This document shows, in pieces, positions 5,502 to 62,584 of a DNA stretch of 64,000 nucleotides. A program made the translations under genes and the position numbers. Each line of letters starts with the position of its first letter. The first letter of the stretch is position 1. The notes beneath the pieces are model-generated. The model was not told the origin of the DNA and did no database searches. It saw only the letters and a program-made list of their open reading frames with translations. Source of the DNA: Escherichia phage PSD2002; sequence record OK335775.1; one strand, written 5' to 3'.

Positions 5502-6437
5502 TTATCCAATTAAAATAGGTGTTGGTGGGTCGAGTAAATCTAATTCTTCGCGAAGGCGTTCTTTTTCTAAACGGGCTTCTTCAATCAATCGAATACCGTC
5601 TACAGTGGTTCCACCTGCAAGTTGCATGCCTTGGTGTTTGGCCAAAATATTACCATTGACTTCTTTAACCAATGCCGTGGCATAATCTTTGACCCAACGG
5701 TTATTATATGAACCATCTTGCAAACCAAGGTCTTCACCTGCTCTCATACCTGAAATACGACGAGCCGGGTTGTCCCAAATAGCTCCGGGGCTCCATTCAT
5801 TTTCGTCGCACCCACCAGAGGCATATCCATATCCTGCGGTATTTCCTACCATAGAATCGACCCCATTAAAAGAGCGAGTATAAACTTCAATTACAATAAA
5901 ATCGCCTTTAACAAAGTTACCCATTACCTTCAACTGCTCAGTGGCATCGTTATACCAATAATCAGGCAATGGAACCAAAAGGTCTTGCATCATAGAACGA
6001 TATTGCATTAATTGTGTAAAATAACCAAGGTCAGCACCGAAGGCATTAGGTCCAAAGCTATTACAAGAAGTTCCAAGACCACCATTAATACCGGCTAAAC
6101 CCAATACAAAATCAGTAAACCATGGATAAGTCGCTTGACCGTCCATAGATGTTAAAGAACCCACATTGGTTCTTAAAATTTGTGTCACCGCAAATATATT
6201 ACGACCTTTAAGGTCAAATACGCCGTTACGGAATTTTTCTTCGTCATCATGGCCTATATAAAAAGCCTGATAACCTTTGTTATAGCCGTTATAATGATAC
6301 TCACCGTAGAGCTCCAGGGCGCGCTGGATGCAATCGTATACTTGGTCTGTAGTTACTTCAATATTCGTAATCGGTGCACCCAGGCGGCGCAGGATTGCGT
6401 CCTTGAGTTGCTTAGGGTTATATGATTCACTTGCCAT
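5502..6437 (-). CDS. 13: neck protein gp13
   Basis: 311-aa ORF, size and position as T4 gp13. Confidence 0.75.
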
Positions 6438-29797: not shown

Positions 29798-29874
29798 GGC
29801 CCTGTAGCTCAATGGTTAGCAGCAGTCCCCTCATAAGGGAAAGGTTACCAGTTCAAATCTGGTCCGGGTCACCA
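29798..29874 (+). tRNA. tRNA, anticodon CAU (Met, or Ile if lysidine-modified)
   Basis: Hand-folded cloverleaf: acceptor GGCCCTG/CCGGGTC, D-loop AATGGTTAG, anticodon loop CU-CAU-AA, T-arm ACCAG-TTCAAAT-CTGGT, encoded CCA. Confidence 0.7.
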
Positions 29875-29879
29875 ACTAT

Positions 29880-29954
29880 GTCCCGCTGGTGTAATGGATA
29901 GCATACGATCCTTCTAAGTTTGCGGTCCTGGTTCGATCCCAGGGCGGGATACCA
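29880..29954 (+). tRNA. tRNA-Arg (anticodon UCU)
   Basis: Hand-folded: acceptor GTCCCGC/GCGGGAT, anticodon loop CU-UCU-AA, T-arm CCTGG-TTCGATC-CCAGG, encoded CCA; T4 also encodes tRNA-Arg(UCU). Confidence 0.75.
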
Positions 29955-42630: not shown

Positions 42631-43377
42631 ATGGAAACTATAAAATATCCATATGACTACTATAAAATAATAAATGACGCCTTATCTAGGGATACACCTA
42701 ATGATGCCTATACAGAAAAGCACCATATAATACCGAGTTGCGTTGGTGGTCCTGACACTCAAGACAATTTAGTTGAGCTTTATGCTGACGAACATTATTT
42801 GGCCCATATGTATCTAGCCAAAGCTAATCCAAACCACTATGGGTTGAATTTTGCTTGGCTAAATATGAGCTCTACTTCAAATTCAAAACAAAGGTCTTAT
42901 TTTGTAGATTCTGAAAATTATAAGTTGGCTAAAGAATCATTTTCAAAATTGCAATCTATTAATAAAATTTTATTTTTCTCTAAAAAGGAAAATAGGGCTG
43001 CTCATTCAATGGCTTTAATAAAGTATTTTGAAAAGGAAGGCTCTAAAGAACGGCTCAAAGAAATTTTAAATTCGCCAAAAGTAAAAGCTAAAATGTCTGA
43101 AAAACGGGTTAAGTATTTTGAAAATCCTGAAAATAGACAAAAATTTAAAGCCATACAAAATTCTAAAGAAACTATAGAAAGGAAAAAAGCCTCTTTGCGG
43201 AAATCCCCTATATGGCATGAACCGATGTATTCACAATTATATAAATTATGGGTAGATAATAATAAACTCAAGTGTGGAAGATTTAGTAAAATCGCAATTA
43301 AGAACGGCTTCCCTAATGTAGATTACCGAGGACTTATTGATTATGATTTTTCTAAAAAAAACTTAAATATTCTTTAA
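42631..43377 (+). CDS. free-standing HNH-family homing endonuclease (mob-like)
   Basis: HNH motif EKHHIIPSCVGGPDTQDNLVELYADEHYLAH; Lys-rich repeat region in C-terminus; AT-rich codon usage; inserted between regB and vs.1. Confidence 0.7.
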   Translation: METIKYPYDYYKIINDALSRDTPNDAYTEKHHIIPSCVGGPDTQDNLVELYADEHYLAHMYLAKANPNHYGLNFAWLNMSSTSNSKQRSYFVDSENYKLAKESFSKLQSINKILFFSKKENRAAHSMALIKYFEKEGSKERLKEILNSPKVKAKMSEKRVKYFENPENRQKFKAIQNSKETIERKKASLRKSPIWHEPMYSQLYKLWVDNNKLKCGRFSKIAIKNGFPNVDYRGLIDYDFSKKNLNIL

Positions 43378-43901: not shown

Positions 43902-44258
43902 ATGATTAAGCAGATGACTATAGCGCTTATGTTGATTGCTCCGGGAGTATTAGCGTCACAAGTTTATGATAGTAATAATTCAATTGTCGAGTATGCTACC
44001 CGTACAGCAAAAGATTATTGTCATCCGAGTAATACTGAATGCATTATCGAATTCAGTTCAAAAATCACGGCTGCTTTTAAAGATGGGCAGAACGACGTAG
44101 AGCATCGACGAATGAAAGAGAAAACTCTTTCTAAAAGATACGAGCAACGTCTAAACGTTACTGAATGTATTCCATCTGATAAAAAGTACAAAGAAATGTG
44201 CGCGTCTATGGTAGACAGACTCGTTGACTCGTACAACCGAGGATTAAACTCTAAATGA
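43902..44258 (+). CDS. hypothetical protein with N-terminal signal/anchor segment (possibly vs by position)
   Basis: 118 aa; hydrophobic N-terminus MTIALMLIAPGVLAS. Confidence 0.4.
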   Translation: MIKQMTIALMLIAPGVLASQVYDSNNSIVEYATRTAKDYCHPSNTECIIEFSSKITAAFKDGQNDVEHRRMKEKTLSKRYEQRLNVTECIPSDKKYKEMCASMVDRLVDSYNRGLNSK

Positions 44259-44722
44259 TTATTGATTATATTAAGGGCGATATTGTCGCCCTGTTTCTTC
44301 AAGGTAATAATGTTGCACACGGGTGCAACTGTTTCCATACAATGGGTTCAGGTGTAGCCGGACAATTGGCTAAGGCTTATCCACCTATTCTCGCTATCGA
44401 TAAAACAACTTGTTTAGGTGATTTGGCAAAACTTGGCACGTTTACTCAAGCTACAGGTAATAATGGCCAAATTTGCTATAATTTATATACCCAATACGAA
44501 CCGGGCCCTAATCTTGATTACGGTGCTTTAGTAAACTGTATGATAGAATTAAACCGTACCGCAAAGGGTCTTTTGTTTAAACCAAGAATTTATATCCCTC
44601 GTATCGGTTGTGGTATTGCTGGTGGTGATTGGGACAAGGTTTATCAATTGATTAATTTGTTTACTCCTGATATTAATTTAGTGGTGGTAGATTATGAAAG
44701 CCCATTACCCGCATCCGTTTGA
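44255..44722 (+). CDS. macro-domain protein (ADP-ribose binding/processing)
   Basis: Motifs NNVAHGCNCFHTMGSGVAGQL and PRIGCGIAGGDW resemble macro-domain signatures. Confidence 0.6.
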   Translation: MIIDYIKGDIVALFLQGNNVAHGCNCFHTMGSGVAGQLAKAYPPILAIDKTTCLGDLAKLGTFTQATGNNGQICYNLYTQYEPGPNLDYGALVNCMIELNRTAKGLLFKPRIYIPRIGCGIAGGDWDKVYQLINLFTPDINLVVVDYESPLPASV

Positions 44723-45097: not shown

Positions 45098-45670
45098 ATG
45101 GCTCAACTTTATTTTCACTATGCGGCGATGAATTCTGGGAAGACCGCTTCATTGCTAACAGCGGCTCATAACTACAAAGAACGCGGTATGGGCGTACTCC
45201 TTTTAAAGCCTGCGATAGACAATAGAGAATCAAGCCATAGCATTTCGTCTCGTATAGGGATTAGTCAAGAGGCTAATGCCGTGACTCCGGATATGGACCT
45301 ATACGAGTTCTATCGTTGGGCTGAATCTCAAAAAGATATCCACTGTGTATTTGTGGATGAAGCACAGTTCTTAGAACCTGCACAGATAAAACAACTGGCA
45401 AAGATAGTAGACAATTATAATGTTCCGGTTATGTGCTATGGGCTAAGAACTGATTTTCAGGGTAAACTGTTTCCTGGCTCTGCTGAATTACTCGCTACGG
45501 CAGATAAACTCGTTGAGTACAAAGGTGTGTGCCATTGTGGCCGTAAAGCTACTATGACTGCTAGGGTCCAGGATGGTATCGCAATTAAGGACGGCGCCCA
45601 AGTTTCTATAGGTGGCAACGATTCTTACGTGTCATTGTGCAGGAAGCACTGGATAGAAATAACGAGTTGA
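45098..45670 (+). CDS. tk: thymidine kinase
   Basis: FHYAAMNSGKTASLL...VFVDEAQFL...CHCGRKATMTAR; 190 aa. Confidence 0.9.
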   Translation: MAQLYFHYAAMNSGKTASLLTAAHNYKERGMGVLLLKPAIDNRESSHSISSRIGISQEANAVTPDMDLYEFYRWAESQKDIHCVFVDEAQFLEPAQIKQLAKIVDNYNVPVMCYGLRTDFQGKLFPGSAELLATADKLVEYKGVCHCGRKATMTARVQDGIAIKDGAQVSIGGNDSYVSLCRKHWIEITS

Positions 45671-48586: not shown

Positions 48587-49593
48587 GAACAGTTGTTAAG
48601 GGCTACTTCGGTAGCCACCTTTATGGAACAAGTACTCCGGAATCTGATGTCGATTTTAAAGAAATCTTTGTTCCGCATCCGCGTGATATTCTGTTAGGTA
48701 CGGCTATGAACCATACCAACCTGAACACGAATAACACTGCTTCCAAAAACACTAAAGATGATGTTGACCATGAGCTTTATAGCCTGAAATATTTCTTTAA
48801 ACTGGCTGCTGATGGCGAAACCGTTGCTCTGGATATGCTCCACACTCCACCTGAACTGGTGGTTAAATCTGATTTACCTGATGTATGGAAATTTATCCAA
48901 GACAATCGTTCTCGGTTCTATACGACTAACATGAAAGCCTATTTAGGGTATGTCCGTAAGCAAGCTTCTAAATATGGTGTTAAAGGTTCTCGTCTGGCTG
49001 CTCTGCGTGGTGTACTGGCTATTGTTAACCAGATTCCTGAACAGTGGGTCGACTATCAAGAAGGAATCCCTGATAGACTTCGTCGTACTAAGGTAGAAGA
49101 TATCAAACATCGACTCCCTGAAAACGAATTCTGTGAATGGGTATTCCATAACCATGAGAAAACAGGCCCTCAAACGTTCTATACTGTTCTTGGACGTAAG
49201 TACCAAACTACTTTATCTTTAATCGAGCTCAAGCAATCTCTGAATAAGCTCGATGCGGAATATGGTGAACGGGCCCGTAAAGCTGAAGCTAACGAAGGTA
49301 TTGACTGGAAAGCTCTGAGCCATGCTTATCGCGCAGGGTATCAATTGTTGGAAATCTACCAAACAGGCGACCTGGTGTTCCCATTGCGCGAAGCCTCTAT
49401 CATTAAGCTGATTAAAGCCGGTGAATTACCATTTAAAGAAGTTCAAGAACTTCTTGAAGATACTGTTGATTTGGTTGAAGTCCTAGCCATCCAGGCATCT
49501 AAGAACGGTATGCCTGAGAAGGTAGACATGAAGTTCTGGGACAAGTTCGTTGAAGAGGTATACCTCGACAACCACAACTCGTATTATAAATGA
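48583..49593 (+). CDS. nucleotidyltransferase-fold protein (Pol-beta superfamily-like)
   Basis: N-terminal GS-x9-SDVDF motif (YFGSHLYGTSTPESDVDFKEIFVP); 336 aa. Confidence 0.55.
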   Translation: MRTVVKGYFGSHLYGTSTPESDVDFKEIFVPHPRDILLGTAMNHTNLNTNNTASKNTKDDVDHELYSLKYFFKLAADGETVALDMLHTPPELVVKSDLPDVWKFIQDNRSRFYTTNMKAYLGYVRKQASKYGVKGSRLAALRGVLAIVNQIPEQWVDYQEGIPDRLRRTKVEDIKHRLPENEFCEWVFHNHEKTGPQTFYTVLGRKYQTTLSLIELKQSLNKLDAEYGERARKAEANEGIDWKALSHAYRAGYQLLEIYQTGDLVFPLREASIIKLIKAGELPFKEVQELLEDTVDLVEVLAIQASKNGMPEKVDMKFWDKFVEEVYLDNHNSYYK

Positions 49594-49595
49594 TA

Positions 49596-49617
49596 AAAGG
49601 CCTTCGGGCCTTTTTTT
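49596..49617 (+). terminator. rho-independent terminator
   Basis: AAAGGCC-ttcg-GGCC followed by TTTTTTT. Confidence 0.75.
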
Positions 49618-49636
49618 GGGTTTAGTGCAAAAAAGA

Positions 49637-49680
49637 GTTTACACTCTCGTAGAGCATGTTATTATGGACCTATCAAATCT
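49637..49680 (+). promoter_or_regulatory. early promoter cassette (variant: GTTTAC, TGTTATTATGGACCTATCAA)
   Basis: GTTTAC 49637-49642; 17-nt spacer; TATTAT. Confidence 0.55.
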
Positions 49681-49702
49681 ACTGAGTGAAATGGAGAATA
49701 TA

Positions 49703-50683
49703 ATGTTAACTATCAAAATCAACAAAGGTATCTATCGCGGTAATGTAATCTCTGGTACGTTCATGAGTTCAGGTAAAACCTGGTTCCCTAATAAAATTCA
49801 TGAATCCGAAGCTCACCTAGGTGATGGCAAGGTATTCGTACAGATTGATGGTGTTGAACGTGGTGTATGGGTGTTCAAATGTGATATCGAAACCGAAGGT
49901 GCTGGAGCTCCTGCAATGGTTACTGAATCCGCTGAAGAAATGAAACATCGCATTAACAAACGTTTTAAAGTAATGAACATGATGACTAATGGAATCATCG
50001 ATGGTAAAATTCGTTCCCTTATCATCTCTGGTGCCGCAGGTATTGGTAAAACGTATTCTTTGGATAAAGCATTACAGAATGCCCACGAAAATGAAACTAT
50101 CGAATATAAATCAATCAACGGAAAGATTAGTGGAATCGGCCTTTACGAGCAGCTTTGGAATAACCGCGGCCCTAATAGTGTTCTTCTTATTGATGATGTT
50201 GATGTATTCTCTGATATGGATATCCTGAACCTGTTAAAAGCAGCATTGGATACTGGTGAAAAACGTAAGGTGTGCTGGAGCACTTCAAGTTCTTATCTTG
50301 ATGATAAAAATATCGATAAAGAATTTGAGTATGAAGGCACCATCGTGTTCATCACCAACGTTGATATCGACCGTGAATTAGAGCGTGGAACTAAACTTGC
50401 TCCACACCTCCAGGCTTTAGTATCTCGTTCAGTTTACTTAGACCTCGGAGTTCACTCTAACGAAGAGATTATGGTCCGTGTTGAAGACGTTATCCTGTCC
50501 ACTGATATGATGCAAAATCGAGGTCTGACTGATGCTGAGACTTATCAAGCACTGTCCTGGATGAAGGCTAATGTATCTCGTCTTCGTAACGTATCATTAC
50601 GTACAGCTCTTTATCTGGCTGACTTCATTGCCACCGATAAAAATGACTGGAGCGAAATCGCTGAAGTTACACTTCTGAAATAA
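49703..50683 (+). CDS. AAA+ ATPase
   Basis: Walker A ISGAAGIGKT, Walker B VLLIDDVDV, sensor-like VFITN; start placed at ATG after promoter and SD. Confidence 0.6.
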   Translation: MLTIKINKGIYRGNVISGTFMSSGKTWFPNKIHESEAHLGDGKVFVQIDGVERGVWVFKCDIETEGAGAPAMVTESAEEMKHRINKRFKVMNMMTNGIIDGKIRSLIISGAAGIGKTYSLDKALQNAHENETIEYKSINGKISGIGLYEQLWNNRGPNSVLLIDDVDVFSDMDILNLLKAALDTGEKRKVCWSTSSSYLDDKNIDKEFEYEGTIVFITNVDIDRELERGTKLAPHLQALVSRSVYLDLGVHSNEEIMVRVEDVILSTDMMQNRGLTDAETYQALSWMKANVSRLRNVSLRTALYLADFIATDKNDWSEIAEVTLLK

Positions 50684-61421: not shown

Positions 61422-61565
61422 ATGGAACTACTTTTAGGATATGTCGTGTTATTCATGGCATTCTACACATTCACACGAGCTTGTTGGATAGGATTCTTTT
61501 CCACTCCTGACGGGTTCATTTCAATAATTTTATTTTGCATTGCAATAACGGCGCTTGGCTTATGA
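61422..61565 (+). CDS. possible small membrane protein
   Basis: 47-aa hydrophobic ORF with SD GAGGAG, ATGA overlap with gene 47. Confidence 0.3.
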   Translation: MELLLGYVVLFMAFYTFTRACWIGFFSTPDGFISIILFCIAITALGL

Positions 61566-62584
61566 AAATATTAAACACAGGTGACTGGCACCTTGGAGTG
61601 AAGGCCGATGATGTGTGGGTACAAAATATCCAACGTCAAGGTATCCAAGACGCTATTAATTATTCTAAAGCAAATGGCATTACTGTGTGGATTCAATACG
61701 GTGATATCTTTGACGTTCGTAAAGCAATTACCCATAAGTGTATGGAATTCGCTCGCGAAATCTCCGATTTGCTTAAAGCCAACGGCATTACCATGTATAC
61801 GGTCGTTGGTAACCATGATATGCACTACAAAAACACATTGACTCCGAACGCTGCTTCTGAAGTTCTGGGTAAATATGACCATATCAAGGTTATTGAGAAA
61901 CCTACTACTGTTAATTTTGATGGCACTGAAATTGATTTGATTCCATGGATGTGTGAAGAAAACACGACCGATATCATGGACCATATCAAAAATACCACAG
62001 CAGATTTCTGTATTGGCCACTGGGAATTAAATGGTTTCTATTTCTATAAAGGAATGAAATCACATGGTTTAGAACCTGATTTCCTTAAGAAGTATAAGCA
62101 AGTATGGTCTGGTCACTTCCACACCATTTCTGATGCAGCAAACGTTAAGTATATTGGTACGCCATGGACCCTGACTGCTGGTGATGAGAACGACCCTCGC
62201 GGCTTCTGGATTTTCGATACAGAAACTCATAAGATGGATTTTGTCATCAATGAAACCTGTTGGCACCGTAAGATTCATTATCCAAATGCGACTATCGATT
62301 ACAAAGATTTTACAAATATCGCAGTTCGTGTTATAGTCGATAAAATCGATGATGGCCTTACTAAGTTCGAATCTGAACTTGAAAAGGTTGTCCACTCTTT
62401 ACGTATTGTGTCTAAGGTAGATAACAGCGTTGATATCGATGATTCTGAAGAGGAAGATGAAGTTAAGTCCCTCTTGGATATGATGTATGATTATATCGAT
62501 GCCCTTCCTGATGGCCACACTGAAGACGATGTTAAAGCCCTTAAGACTATGGCTGCACAACTTTATAATGAGGTTACACGATGA
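61562..62584 (+). CDS. 47: recombination endonuclease subunit gp47 (Mre11-like)
   Basis: MKILNTGDWHLGVK...WIQYGDIFDVRKAITHK...VVGNHDMHYKN matches recalled T4 gp47; start trimmed to MKIL. Confidence 0.95.
   Translation: MKILNTGDWHLGVKADDVWVQNIQRQGIQDAINYSKANGITVWIQYGDIFDVRKAITHKCMEFAREISDLLKANGITMYTVVGNHDMHYKNTLTPNAASEVLGKYDHIKVIEKPTTVNFDGTEIDLIPWMCEENTTDIMDHIKNTTADFCIGHWELNGFYFYKGMKSHGLEPDFLKKYKQVWSGHFHTISDAANVKYIGTPWTLTAGDENDPRGFWIFDTETHKMDFVINETCWHRKIHYPNATIDYKDFTNIAVRVIVDKIDDGLTKFESELEKVVHSLRIVSKVDNSVDIDDSEEEDEVKSLLDMMYDYIDALPDGHTEDDVKALKTMAAQLYNEVTR

What the first reader, a model, noticed from the sequence alone, without database searches (positions are those of the whole stretch)
44255..44722. 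Macro-domain protein in the tk-proximal accessory block
The 155-aa ORF carries NNVAHGCNCFHTMGSGVAGQL and PRIGCGIAGGDW, resembling the two glycine-rich signatures of macro domains (ADP-ribose binding or hydrolysis). Phage macro domains can reverse ADP-ribosylation-based host immunity or processing, so this is a candidate counter-defence enzyme.
Basis: partly seen in the sequence, partly recalled or inferred. Interest (0 to 1): 0.45.

Follow-up and report, generated by a model that had tools for sequence, protein, structure and literature searches.

The report
Phage T4 Tk.4-type macrodomain (AdfM)

Summary

A November 2025 preprint names T4 tk.4 AdfM; deleting it makes T4 sensitive to DarTG2.

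Added here:
- The catalytic lysine of DarG and TARG1 is a glutamine (Q80) in this family, in 253 of 254 relatives. This matches Streptomyces SCO6735, which removes ADP-ribose from thymidine in DNA and needs that glutamine.
- PhiKZ "AdfM" is a different, lysine-type lineage.
- The same phage family also contains Adpp, an ADP-ribose-1''-phosphate phosphatase that sits inside NAD+-rebuilding operons (39% identity). That activity is a live alternative or second function.

Best reading: an orphan DNA de-ADP-ribosylase against DarT2 (about 0.7). Ordinary and already known; low-to-moderate interest.

The parts
44255..44722 (+). tk.4/adfM ortholog: 155-aa single-domain macro protein
   Evidence: ORF. 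Pfam Macro E 3.6e-8. PHROG 335 E 1.8e-67. 54% identity to T4 Tk.4 over the full length. Annotated tk.4 in Bp7, IME08 and JS10 at 94-97% DNA identity. Model pLDDT 94.
44315..44359 (+). A21-H22-G23-C24-N25-C26 ... M30-G31-S32-G33-V34-A35: first ADP-ribose-binding loop. It carries the conserved His and Asn, which correspond to SCO6735 H24 and N27.
   Evidence: HMMER alignment to SCO6735 5e3b, with residue numbering checked. H22 is present in 245/254 relatives, N25 in 252/254 and G33 in 253/254. SCO6735 N27S is almost inactive (PMC9411070).
44480..44494 (+). N76-L77-Y78-T79-Q80 motif. Q80 occupies the position of the catalytic Lys of TARG1 (K84) and DarG (K80), and of Gln85 of SCO6735.
   Evidence: Profile alignment to TARG1 and BT1257. 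L-INS-i alignment with all references. Q is present in 253/254 relatives and Y78 in 254/254. SCO6735 Q85A and Q85E are inactive (PMC9411070).
44597..44632 (+). P115-R-I-G118-C-G120-I-A122-G-G-D-W126: second (phosphate-binding) glycine-rich loop. A122 sits where TARG1 has the catalytic D125.
   Evidence: Alignments. G118 and G120 correspond to SCO6735 G126 and G128 (numbering); the G128E mutant shows a substantial loss of activity. G118 is present in 252/254 and G120 in 250/254 relatives.
44255..44258 (+). ATGA start/stop overlap with the upstream gene vs (43902..44258): the genes are tightly packed and probably co-transcribed and translationally coupled.
   Evidence: Sequence. The vs identity rests on PHROG 1256, E 3.8e-34. 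No strong promoter match lies directly upstream.
44274..44292 (+). GC-rich hairpin (GGGCGAU-AUU-GUCGCCC) inside codons 7-13, followed by a U-rich stretch. Terminator- or attenuator-like; function unknown.
   Evidence: Terminator-like hit. 20 nt are identical in T4 and Bp7. The stem is kept with a different loop in Krischvirus pEJ01 and is absent in more distant genera. Folding energy is -13 to -14 kcal/mol, z about -3. It is unique in the window. Codons 7-12 are identical in every comparison, against about 0.5-0.6 elsewhere.

Best explanation
The ORF encodes the Dhakavirus ortholog of T4 Tk.4 (AdfM), a stand-alone 'orphan antitoxin-like' macrodomain that protects the phage from DarTG2-type defence.

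Proposed mechanism. When DarT2 is unleashed during infection, it ADP-ribosylates thymidines in single-stranded phage DNA and blocks replication. The macrodomain binds the ADP-ribose in the cleft formed by the two glycine-rich loops (residues 30-35 and 118-124). N25 and Q80 position the distal ribose. The enzyme hydrolyses the C1''-N3(thymine) bond, releasing ADP-ribose and intact DNA. Because the catalytic Lys of DarG and TARG1 is replaced by an invariant Gln, the chemistry is expected to follow the Gln85-dependent, water-mediated mechanism proposed for SCO6735 rather than the DarG or TARG1 mechanism. The protein has no DarT-binding C-terminal domain, so it should act catalytically in trans.

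Shown here: the macro fold, the active-site motif pattern, and orthology and synteny with T4 tk.4.
Shown in the literature: the T4 tk.4 knockout becomes DarTG2-sensitive; the Gln-type SCO6735 removes dT-ADPr and rescues DarT toxicity.
Inferred: that this allele has the same substrate and role.
For: Macro domain.
Orthology: 54% identity over 155/155 aa. The gene order regB-vs.1-vs-tk.4-tk.3-tk.2-tk is the same as in T4 and Bp7. In an NJ tree the window protein falls inside the Straboviridae Tk.4 clade.
Function of the ortholog: tk.4 was the only significant T4 hit on DarTG2, and the knockout was sensitised. T4 lacking adfA and adfN stays DarTG2-resistant, which predicted such a factor (PMC11825919).
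Gln-type active site: Q80 in 253/254 and N25 in 252/254 relatives. SCO6735 with the same Gln cleaves dT-ADPr faster than DarG or TARG1, needs Q85 and N27, and protects against DarT in vivo (PMC9411070).
Against: No Tk.4-type protein has been shown biochemically to de-ADP-ribosylate DNA in the papers I could read; the T4 evidence is genetic.
The window allele belongs to a sister sub-clade (with ECP2301), not to the T4/ST0 sub-clade. Its second loop differs: GCGIAGGDW here, GAGIGKGNW in T4.
The two DNA-positioning lysines of SCO6735 (K34, K89) are S32 and G84 here, and the long 'mobile loop' of the SCO6735/BT1257 subclass is missing.
A 39%-identical family member, Adpp, is a proven ADPR-1''-phosphate phosphatase.
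Confidence: 0.7

Rival explanations
1. It is primarily an ADP-ribose-1''-phosphate phosphatase (Adpp/Poa1p-like). It would convert ADPR-1P, the product of RES-domain NADases such as the aRES defence system, back to ADPR and so support NAD+ recovery. This may be a second activity of the same active site rather than an exclusive alternative.
Against: Adpp works as part of a three-gene Adps-Adpp-Namat operon, and no Prs-like or NAPRT-like gene was found among the neighbours scanned in the window. No roughly 170-kb T-even record appeared among 60 rows sampled evenly from 1475 Adps-positive phage records. The Adpp branch lies outside the Straboviridae Tk.4 clade. It also differs at G23 (Q), S32 (R) and by a 7-aa insertion after the Gln. 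The only phenotype reported for T4 tk.4 is on DarTG2.
Confidence: 0.15
2. It reverses ADP-ribosylation of proteins or RNA. Possible targets are marks written by host ADP-ribosyltransferase defences, marks written by the phage's own Alt/ModA/ModB enzymes, or phosphate-end or base ADP-ribosylation of RNA.
For: TARG1 and SCO6735, both close relatives, hydrolyse glutamate-linked protein ADP-ribose (PARP1 E988Q). TARG1 also acts on phosphate-end RNA/DNA ADP-ribosylation (PMC11833690). T4-like phages carry their own ADP-ribosyltransferases (text on Alt and ModA).
Against: In the assays of PMC11833690, SCO6735, the Gln-type relative, was reported inactive on 5'-phosphate and 2'-OH RNA/DNA ADP-ribosylation in the results section, although that paper's discussion is inconsistent on the point. 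Alt/Mod enzymes modify arginine, a linkage macrodomains are not known to cleave (my own knowledge, not tested here). No genetic phenotype of this kind is reported for tk.4.
Confidence: 0.1
3. It is a non-catalytic ADP-ribose binder, acting as a reader or sponge for ADPR-derived immune signals or as a stoichiometric DarT inhibitor.
For: The catalytic Lys/Asp of TARG1 are absent. Catalytically dead SCO6735 Q85A still inhibits DarT by interaction.
Against: Every residue shown to matter for SCO6735 catalysis that can be mapped (H, N, Q and the two Gly) is nearly invariant across 254 relatives. That pattern is typical of an enzyme. Both the closest characterised Gln-type protein (SCO6735) and the phage relative Adpp are active hydrolases.
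Confidence: 0.05

Closest known systems
Phage T4 Tk.4 = AdfM (anti-DarT factor Macrodomain; bioRxiv 10.1101/2025.11.20.689424)
   Same: Same length (155 aa), 54% identity and the same genomic slot between vs and tk.3. Same HGCNC / NLYTQ / PRIGxG motifs.
   Different: The window protein lies in a sister sub-clade: it is 76% identical to the Tequatrovirus ECP2301 allele, which is only 58% identical to T4's. The second loop is GCGIAGGDW (the family consensus) against T4's GAGIGKGNW. The C-terminus is 4 aa longer and overlaps tk.3 by 29 nt instead of 4. This allele is untested.
Streptomyces coelicolor SCO6735 / Bacteroides BT1257 (Gln-type subclass of ALC1-like macrodomains; PMC9411070)
   Different: Only 25-29% identity. 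The window protein lacks the 5-6-residue longer 'mobile loop' that defines the subclass, and lacks K34 and K89 (S32 and G84 here). It is a phage protein, not a bacterial one.
Adpp of Vibrio phage Gary (NARP1-AP ADPR-1''-phosphate phosphatase; bioRxiv 10.64898/2026.01.28.702374)
   Same: Same phage macro family: tblastn with either query finds about 2730 phage records. 39% identity, Gln at the same position, and the same GCGxAGGDW loop.
   Different: Adpp is embedded between Adps and Namat, whereas the window gene sits between vs and tk.3 with no NARP1 genes found among the ORFs scanned. Adpp has Q for G23, R for S32 and a 7-aa insertion after the Gln.
DarG antitoxin of DarTG2 (T. aquaticus, M. 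tuberculosis; PDB 5M31/5M3E/5M3I)
   Different: DarG uses Lys80; this protein has Gln. DarG has a C-terminal DarT-binding domain and is encoded next to darT. The NCBIfam DarG equivalog scores 24 bits against a cut-off of 250. Identity is 22-25%.
PhiKZ gp104, also named AdfM (Cell Rep 2026, PMC13309987)
   Same: A phage-encoded stand-alone macrodomain that removes DarT2 ADP-ribose from DNA and protects against DarTG2.
   Different: A different lineage. It is DarG-like with the FPTK lysine motif (E 9e-25 to Mtb DarG) and only 21% identical to the window protein. It is imported into the phage nucleus.
Human TARG1/OARD1 and yeast Poa1p
   Same: Among the top structural matches (TM 0.75-0.83 and 0.75). 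Loop lengths match TARG1, with no gaps around the catalytic position.
   Different: The TARG1 Lys84/Asp125 dyad is Gln80/Ala122 here. Poa1p is a eukaryotic enzyme of tRNA-splicing by-product metabolism.

Membership tests
Macro domain superfamily (Pfam PF01661) | HMM score above the curated gathering threshold | tested here: met
   33.8 bits against a cut-off of 22, E 3.6e-8, covering profile positions 2-117 of 118.
Macro domain superfamily (Pfam PF01661) | Three-layer alpha/beta/alpha macro fold | tested here: met
Macro domain superfamily (Pfam PF01661) | Binds ADP-ribose | not testable with these tools
   Both glycine-rich loops are conserved, but binding was not measured.
T4 Tk.4 / AdfM orthologous group | Full-length similarity to T4 Tk.4 | tested here: met
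   54% identity, 155 of 155 aa, E 3e-63. Falls within the Straboviridae clade in the NJ tree.
T4 Tk.4 / AdfM orthologous group | Conserved position between vs and tk.3-tk.2-tk | tested here: met
   Window neighbours are RegB, Vs.1 (PHROG 600), Vs (PHROG 1256), DUF7202 (tk.3), DUF7438 (tk.2) and TK. The order is the same in T4 and Bp7.
T4 Tk.4 / AdfM orthologous group | Required for phage growth on DarTG2 hosts | not testable with these tools
   Shown only for T4.
DarG antitoxin (NCBIfam NF048014, equivalog) | Score at or above the curated cut-off | tested here: not met
   24.3 bits against 250. The PADLOC DarG model matches only positions 3-142 of 329.
DarG antitoxin (NCBIfam NF048014, equivalog) | C-terminal DarT-binding domain and an adjacent darT gene | tested here: not met
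   The protein is a single 155-aa domain. Neighbours are vs and tk.3, and no toxin gene is present.
DarG antitoxin (NCBIfam NF048014, equivalog) | Catalytic Lys (K80 in T. aquaticus) | tested here: not met
   Gln80 aligns with the FPTK lysine.
SCO6735/BT1257 subclass of ALC1-like macrodomains | Gln at the catalytic-Lys position, with the supporting Asn and His | tested here: met
   Q80, N25 and H22; near-invariant across relatives.
SCO6735/BT1257 subclass of ALC1-like macrodomains | Mobile loop about 5 residues longer than in DarG and TARG1 | tested here: not met
   There is a 6-residue gap in the query relative to BT1257 right after the Gln, and the alignment to TARG1 there has no gaps.
SCO6735/BT1257 subclass of ALC1-like macrodomains | DNA-positioning lysines K34 and K89 | tested here: not met
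   They correspond to S32 and G84.
TARG1-type glycohydrolase | Lys84/Asp125 catalytic dyad | tested here: not met
   Q80 and A122 occupy the aligned positions.
Adpp (NARP1-AP ADPR-1P phosphatase) | Encoded inside or next to an Adps-Namat (NARP1) operon | tested here: not met
   No Prs-like or NAPRT-like gene was found among the ORFs scanned around the gene or downstream in the window. Contrast the BBMuffin locus L011.
Adpp (NARP1-AP ADPR-1P phosphatase) | Sequence relationship to the Vibrio phage Gary enzyme | tested here: inconclusive
   39% identity to the 94%-identical BBMuffin homolog. They are clearly homologous but lie on a separate branch.
Adpp (NARP1-AP ADPR-1P phosphatase) | Dephosphorylates ADPR-1''-phosphate | not testable with these tools
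   Needs an enzyme assay.
MacroD/YmdB-type O-acetyl-ADP-ribose deacetylase (the name some sources give to relatives) | Closest structural and sequence neighbours are MacroD-type | tested here: not met

The most novel reading that the evidence does not exclude
The Gln-type phage macro family (Tk.4/AdfM plus Adpp) may be a single broad-specificity 'C1''-substituent hydrolase'. On this reading the T-even Tk.4 enzyme, including this allele, would both strip DarT2 ADP-ribose from thymidine in DNA and dephosphorylate the ADPR-1''-phosphate made by RES-domain NADases. One small enzyme would then blunt two mechanistically unrelated immune systems. The two tk.4 allele types seen among T-even phages (GCGIAGGDW against GAGIGKGNW) could reflect tuning between these substrates.
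Probability: 0.2. Interest if true: 0.55.

Novelty: already known. Interest (0 to 1): 0.3.

Why it matters
Taken at face value this is one more copy of a described anti-DarTG2 gene, present at 95% protein identity or more in 35 sequenced phage records and, more distantly, in about 2700 phage records. Its value is as context.

- T-even phages stack counter-measures against DNA ADP-ribosylation: AdfA and AdfN against DarTG1, and AdfM against DarTG2.
- The comparison here shows that two unrelated macro lineages carry the name AdfM.
- The T-even lineage uses a Gln-type active site like SCO6735, not the Lys of DarG.
- The same lineage includes the NAD+-salvage phosphatase Adpp.

That points to a simple test, by enzyme assay and plaque assay, of whether the substrate is DNA-ADPr, ADPR-1P or both.

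Tried and rejected
1. A profile-profile (hhalign) comparison of the family with PhiKZ gp104 gave 96% probability. It shifted the catalytic motif by two residues against a compensating gap, so I did not use it for residue mapping. L-INS-i and HMMER were used instead.

2. Default MAFFT misplaced the BT1257 and SCO6735 'NMIGQ' motif. This was corrected with L-INS-i.

3. The model coordinates are not exposed to scripts, so I could not measure active-site distances or electrostatics.

4. A scan for promoters directly upstream found nothing convincing; the gene looks co-transcribed with vs.

5. An Rfam search around the gene found no family for the hairpin. The only hit was a sub-threshold snoRNA match, which I regard as chance.

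6. A scan of viral contigs for AAGGGCGA-N(3-7)-TCGCCCT returned more than 120 unrelated contigs. Many hits were palindromic on both strands, which means the pattern is a generic terminator-like hairpin. The scan said nothing about conservation in tk.4 and was abandoned.

7. MacroD/YmdB, 'RNase III regulator' and plain 'phosphatase' labels attached to relatives were considered and set aside as annotation carry-over.

8. Structure alone (Foldseek TM 0.71-0.83 for TARG1, Poa1p, BT1257 and DarG alike) cannot separate the candidate activities.

Full report
OBSERVATION

The window has an ATG...TGA ORF at 44255..44722 on the + strand that encodes 155 aa. The start codon overlaps the stop of the upstream gene (ATGA). 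The 3' end overlaps the next ORF by 29 nt. The thymidine kinase gene follows at 45098..45670 (Pfam TK).

WHAT THE PROTEIN IS

Pfam Macro (PF01661) matches over almost the whole profile, with E 3.6e-8 and 33.8 bits against a gathering score of 22. PHROG 335, labelled 'phosphatase', matches at E 1.8e-67.

A 68-sequence family profile matches these solved structures:
- BT1257 at E 3e-20
- TARG1 at 1e-17
- SCO6735 at 1e-16
- Poa1p at 1e-14
- the DarG macrodomains at 2e-11 and 1e-9
- coronavirus Mac1 only at 3e-4

Foldseek gives TM 0.71-0.83 for the same group. The protein is therefore a macrodomain of the ALC1/TARG1/DarG/Poa1p class.

WHERE IT SITS

The region is 94-98% identical to Dhakavirus-type T4-like coliphages (PSD9, WG01, Bp7, IME08, JS10). 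In several of these records the gene is annotated tk.4.

The neighbours in the window are RegB, an HNH homing endonuclease, Vs.1, Vs, Tk.4, Tk.3 (DUF7202), Tk.2 (DUF7438), Tk, then an antiholin-family gene. Apart from the endonuclease, this is the order found in T4 and Bp7.

T4 Tk.4 is also 155 aa and is 54% identical over its full length. In an NJ tree of named references the window protein falls inside a clade of Straboviridae Tk.4 proteins. It is the positional ortholog of T4 tk.4.

WHAT IS KNOWN ABOUT THE ORTHOLOG

A November 2025 preprint (HIDEN-SEQ, 10.1101/2025.11.20.689424) infected a DarTG2 host with a T4 transposon library. [quoted passage not shown] It showed that a clean tk.4 knockout sensitises T4 to DarTG2. 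It noted the structural similarity to M. tuberculosis DarG and named the gene adfM, 'anti-DarT factor Macrodomain'.

This fills a gap flagged earlier: T4 lacking adfA and adfN stays resistant to DarTG2 (PMC11825919).

The preprint infers enzymatic removal of ADP-ribose but does not demonstrate it.

ACTIVE SITE

Alignment to TARG1 and to all references puts Gln80 of the motif N76-L-Y-T-Q80 where TARG1 has the catalytic Lys84 and DarG has Lys80. Ala122 sits where TARG1 has Asp125.

The Gln is not an oddity of this phage. Among 254 relatives collected from two large protein searches, Q80 is present in 253, N25 in 252, Y78 in 254, H22 in 245, G118 in 252 and G120 in 250.

The same Lys-to-Gln replacement defines Streptomyces SCO6735 (Gln85) and Bacteroides BT1257. 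SCO6735 removes thymidine-linked ADP-ribose from DNA faster than DarG or TARG1 and rescues DarT toxicity. It loses all activity in Q85A and Q85E and nearly all in N27S. Its authors propose a water-mediated mechanism in which Gln85 positions the distal ribose (PMC9411070).

Residue mapping through the HMMER alignments gives:

| Window | SCO6735 |
|---|---|
| H22 | H24 |
| G23 | V25 |
| N25 | N27 |
| Q80 | Q85 |
| G118 | G126 |
| G120 | G128 |

There are differences. SCO6735's DNA-positioning K34 and K89 are S32 and G84 here. The 5-6-residue longer 'mobile loop' that characterises the SCO6735/BT1257 subclass is absent, so loop lengths match TARG1.

The Tk.4 family is therefore a distinct Gln-type branch. 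It is not a member of the SCO6735 subclass, not a DarG (NCBIfam DarG 24 bits against a cut-off of 250; no C-terminal domain), and not a TARG1.

TWO LINEAGES NAMED AdfM

A 2026 Cell Reports paper independently named PhiKZ gp104 'AdfM' and showed that it removes DarT2 ADP-ribose from DNA (PMC13309987). That protein is a lysine-type, DarG-like macrodomain with an FPTK motif (E 9e-25 to Mtb DarG). It is only 21% identical to the window protein and lies on the DarG side of the tree. Phages have thus recruited two different macro lineages against DarT2.

A SECOND ESTABLISHED FUNCTION IN THE SAME FAMILY

One of the tblastn hits, Vibrio phage BBMuffin, has the homolog sandwiched between a Prs-like gene and a NAPRT-like gene. 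This is the NARP1-AP operon described in January 2026 (10.64898/2026.01.28.702374).

In that system, RES-domain 'aRES' defence cleaves NAD+ to nicotinamide and ADPR-1''-phosphate, which NARP1 cannot use. A macro-domain phosphatase, Adpp, converts ADPR-1P to ADPR. The purified Vibrio phage Gary enzyme does this in vitro and is needed in vivo.

The Gary protein is 94% identical to BBMuffin gp178. BBMuffin gp178 is 39% identical to the window protein and also has Gln at the Q80 position. tblastn with either protein finds essentially the same ~2730 phage records.

The old 'A1pp phosphatase' annotation is therefore not baseless, and ADPR-1P phosphatase activity is a live rival or second activity.

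Against it as the main role here:
- No Adps or Namat gene was found among the ORFs scanned near the gene or downstream in the window.
- No ~170-kb T-even record appeared among 60 evenly sampled rows of the 1475 phage records with an Adps homolog.
- The Adpp branch is outside the Straboviridae clade and differs at G23, S32 and by a 7-aa insertion.
- The only reported tk.4 phenotype is on DarTG2.

Both reactions cleave whatever is attached to C1'' of the distal ribose, so one active site could do both.

MOST LIKELY MECHANISM (confidence about 0.7)

This is an orphan, antitoxin-like DNA ADP-ribosyl glycohydrolase. It is probably co-transcribed with vs. It would bind ADP-ribose attached by DarT2 to thymidine in single-stranded phage DNA and hydrolyse the C1''-N3 bond with N25 and Q80 positioning the ribose. 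That restores a template the phage can replicate.

The fold, the motifs and the orthology are shown here. The phenotype and the chemistry are taken from T4 and SCO6735. The activity of this particular allele is inferred.

NOVELTY AND SCORE

The gene is already in GenBank as tk.4, 'phosphatase' or 'macro domain protein' in dozens of near-identical phages, and the function of its T4 ortholog is published. I rate it 'already known' with interest 0.3.

The residual open question is whether Tk.4-type enzymes act on DNA-ADPr only or also on ADPR-1P. I give the bifunctional reading a probability of about 0.2. The allele split within T-even phages bears on the same question: ECP2301, a Tequatrovirus, is 76% identical to the window allele but only 58% identical to T4's.

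SIDE OBSERVATIONS

1. A GC-rich hairpin at 44274-44292, inside codons 7-13, is followed by a U-rich stretch.
   - Its 20 nt are identical in T4 and Bp7.
   - The stem is kept in Mosigvirus, and in Krischvirus with a different loop. It is lost in Karamvirus and beyond.
   - It folds at -13 to -14 kcal/mol with z about -3 and is unique in the window.
   - All six hairpin codons are identical between the window and T4, ST0 and ECP2301. Elsewhere, 51-62% of codons at conserved residues are identical.
   - It may be an intragenic attenuator or terminator after vs, but this is unproven.

2. The HNH homing endonuclease at 42631..43377, between regB and vs.1, is present in only 4 of 51 related records.

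Noticed in passing
window 44274-44292 (with the U-rich tail to about 44302): A GC-rich hairpin, GGGCGAU-AUU-GUCGCCC, lies inside codons 7-13 of tk.4 and is followed by GUUUCUU. It is identical at the DNA level in T4, Bp7, ECP2301 and ST0 although the proteins are only 54-76% identical. The stem is kept with a different loop in Krischvirus pEJ01 and is absent in Karamvirus and more distant genera. It looks like an intragenic terminator or attenuator after vs; its function is unknown.
   Followed up: partly
window 42631-43377 (+): A 248-aa HNH homing endonuclease (PHROG 655, E 4e-36) is inserted between regB and vs.1. Only 4 of 51 related Dhakavirus-type records (phage 04086, IME540, NC-G, FB) carry it; Bp7 and T4 have regB directly followed by vs.1.
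   Followed up: partly
L011 (Vibrio phage BBMuffin) 2632-5638: A homolog of the window protein (39% identity) sits between a Prs-like Adps gene and a NAPRT-like Namat gene. This is a NARP1-AP operon whose macro protein (Adpp, 94% identical in phage Gary) is a proven ADPR-1''-phosphate phosphatase.
   Followed up: yes
L003 (Escherichia phage ECP2301, Tequatrovirus) 401-880 compared with L001 (T4) 5923-6390: T-even phages carry two tk.4 allele types. The ECP2301 allele is 76% identical to the Dhakavirus window allele but only 58% identical to T4's. The types differ in the second glycine loop (GCGIAGGDW against GAGIGKGNW or GAGIGGGNW). This suggests allele exchange across genera or diversifying selection.
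   Followed up: partly
literature (PMC13309987 and bioRxiv 10.1101/2025.11.20.689424): The name AdfM has been given independently to two different macrodomain lineages: PhiKZ gp104 (Lys-type, DarG-like) and T4 Tk.4 (Gln-type). The window protein is only 21% identical to the PhiKZ one.
   Followed up: yes
window 44694-44722: tk.4 overlaps the next gene (tk.3, DUF7202) by 29 nt here and in Bp7, against 4 nt in T4. The Dhakavirus Tk.4 has a short C-terminal extension (…ESPLPASV) that is disordered in the model, with pLDDT about 49 for the last residues.
   Followed up: no
window 29798-29954 (+): Two adjacent tRNA genes, tRNA-Met (CAT) and tRNA-Arg (TCT).
   Followed up: no
window 49550-50683 (+) and 61535-62584 (+): A 377-aa ORF has weak AAA/STAND-NTPase-like Pfam matches below their cut-offs. 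A 349-aa ORF is a calcineurin-like metallophosphoesterase. Both lie in the accessory region downstream of tk and were not examined further.
   Followed up: no
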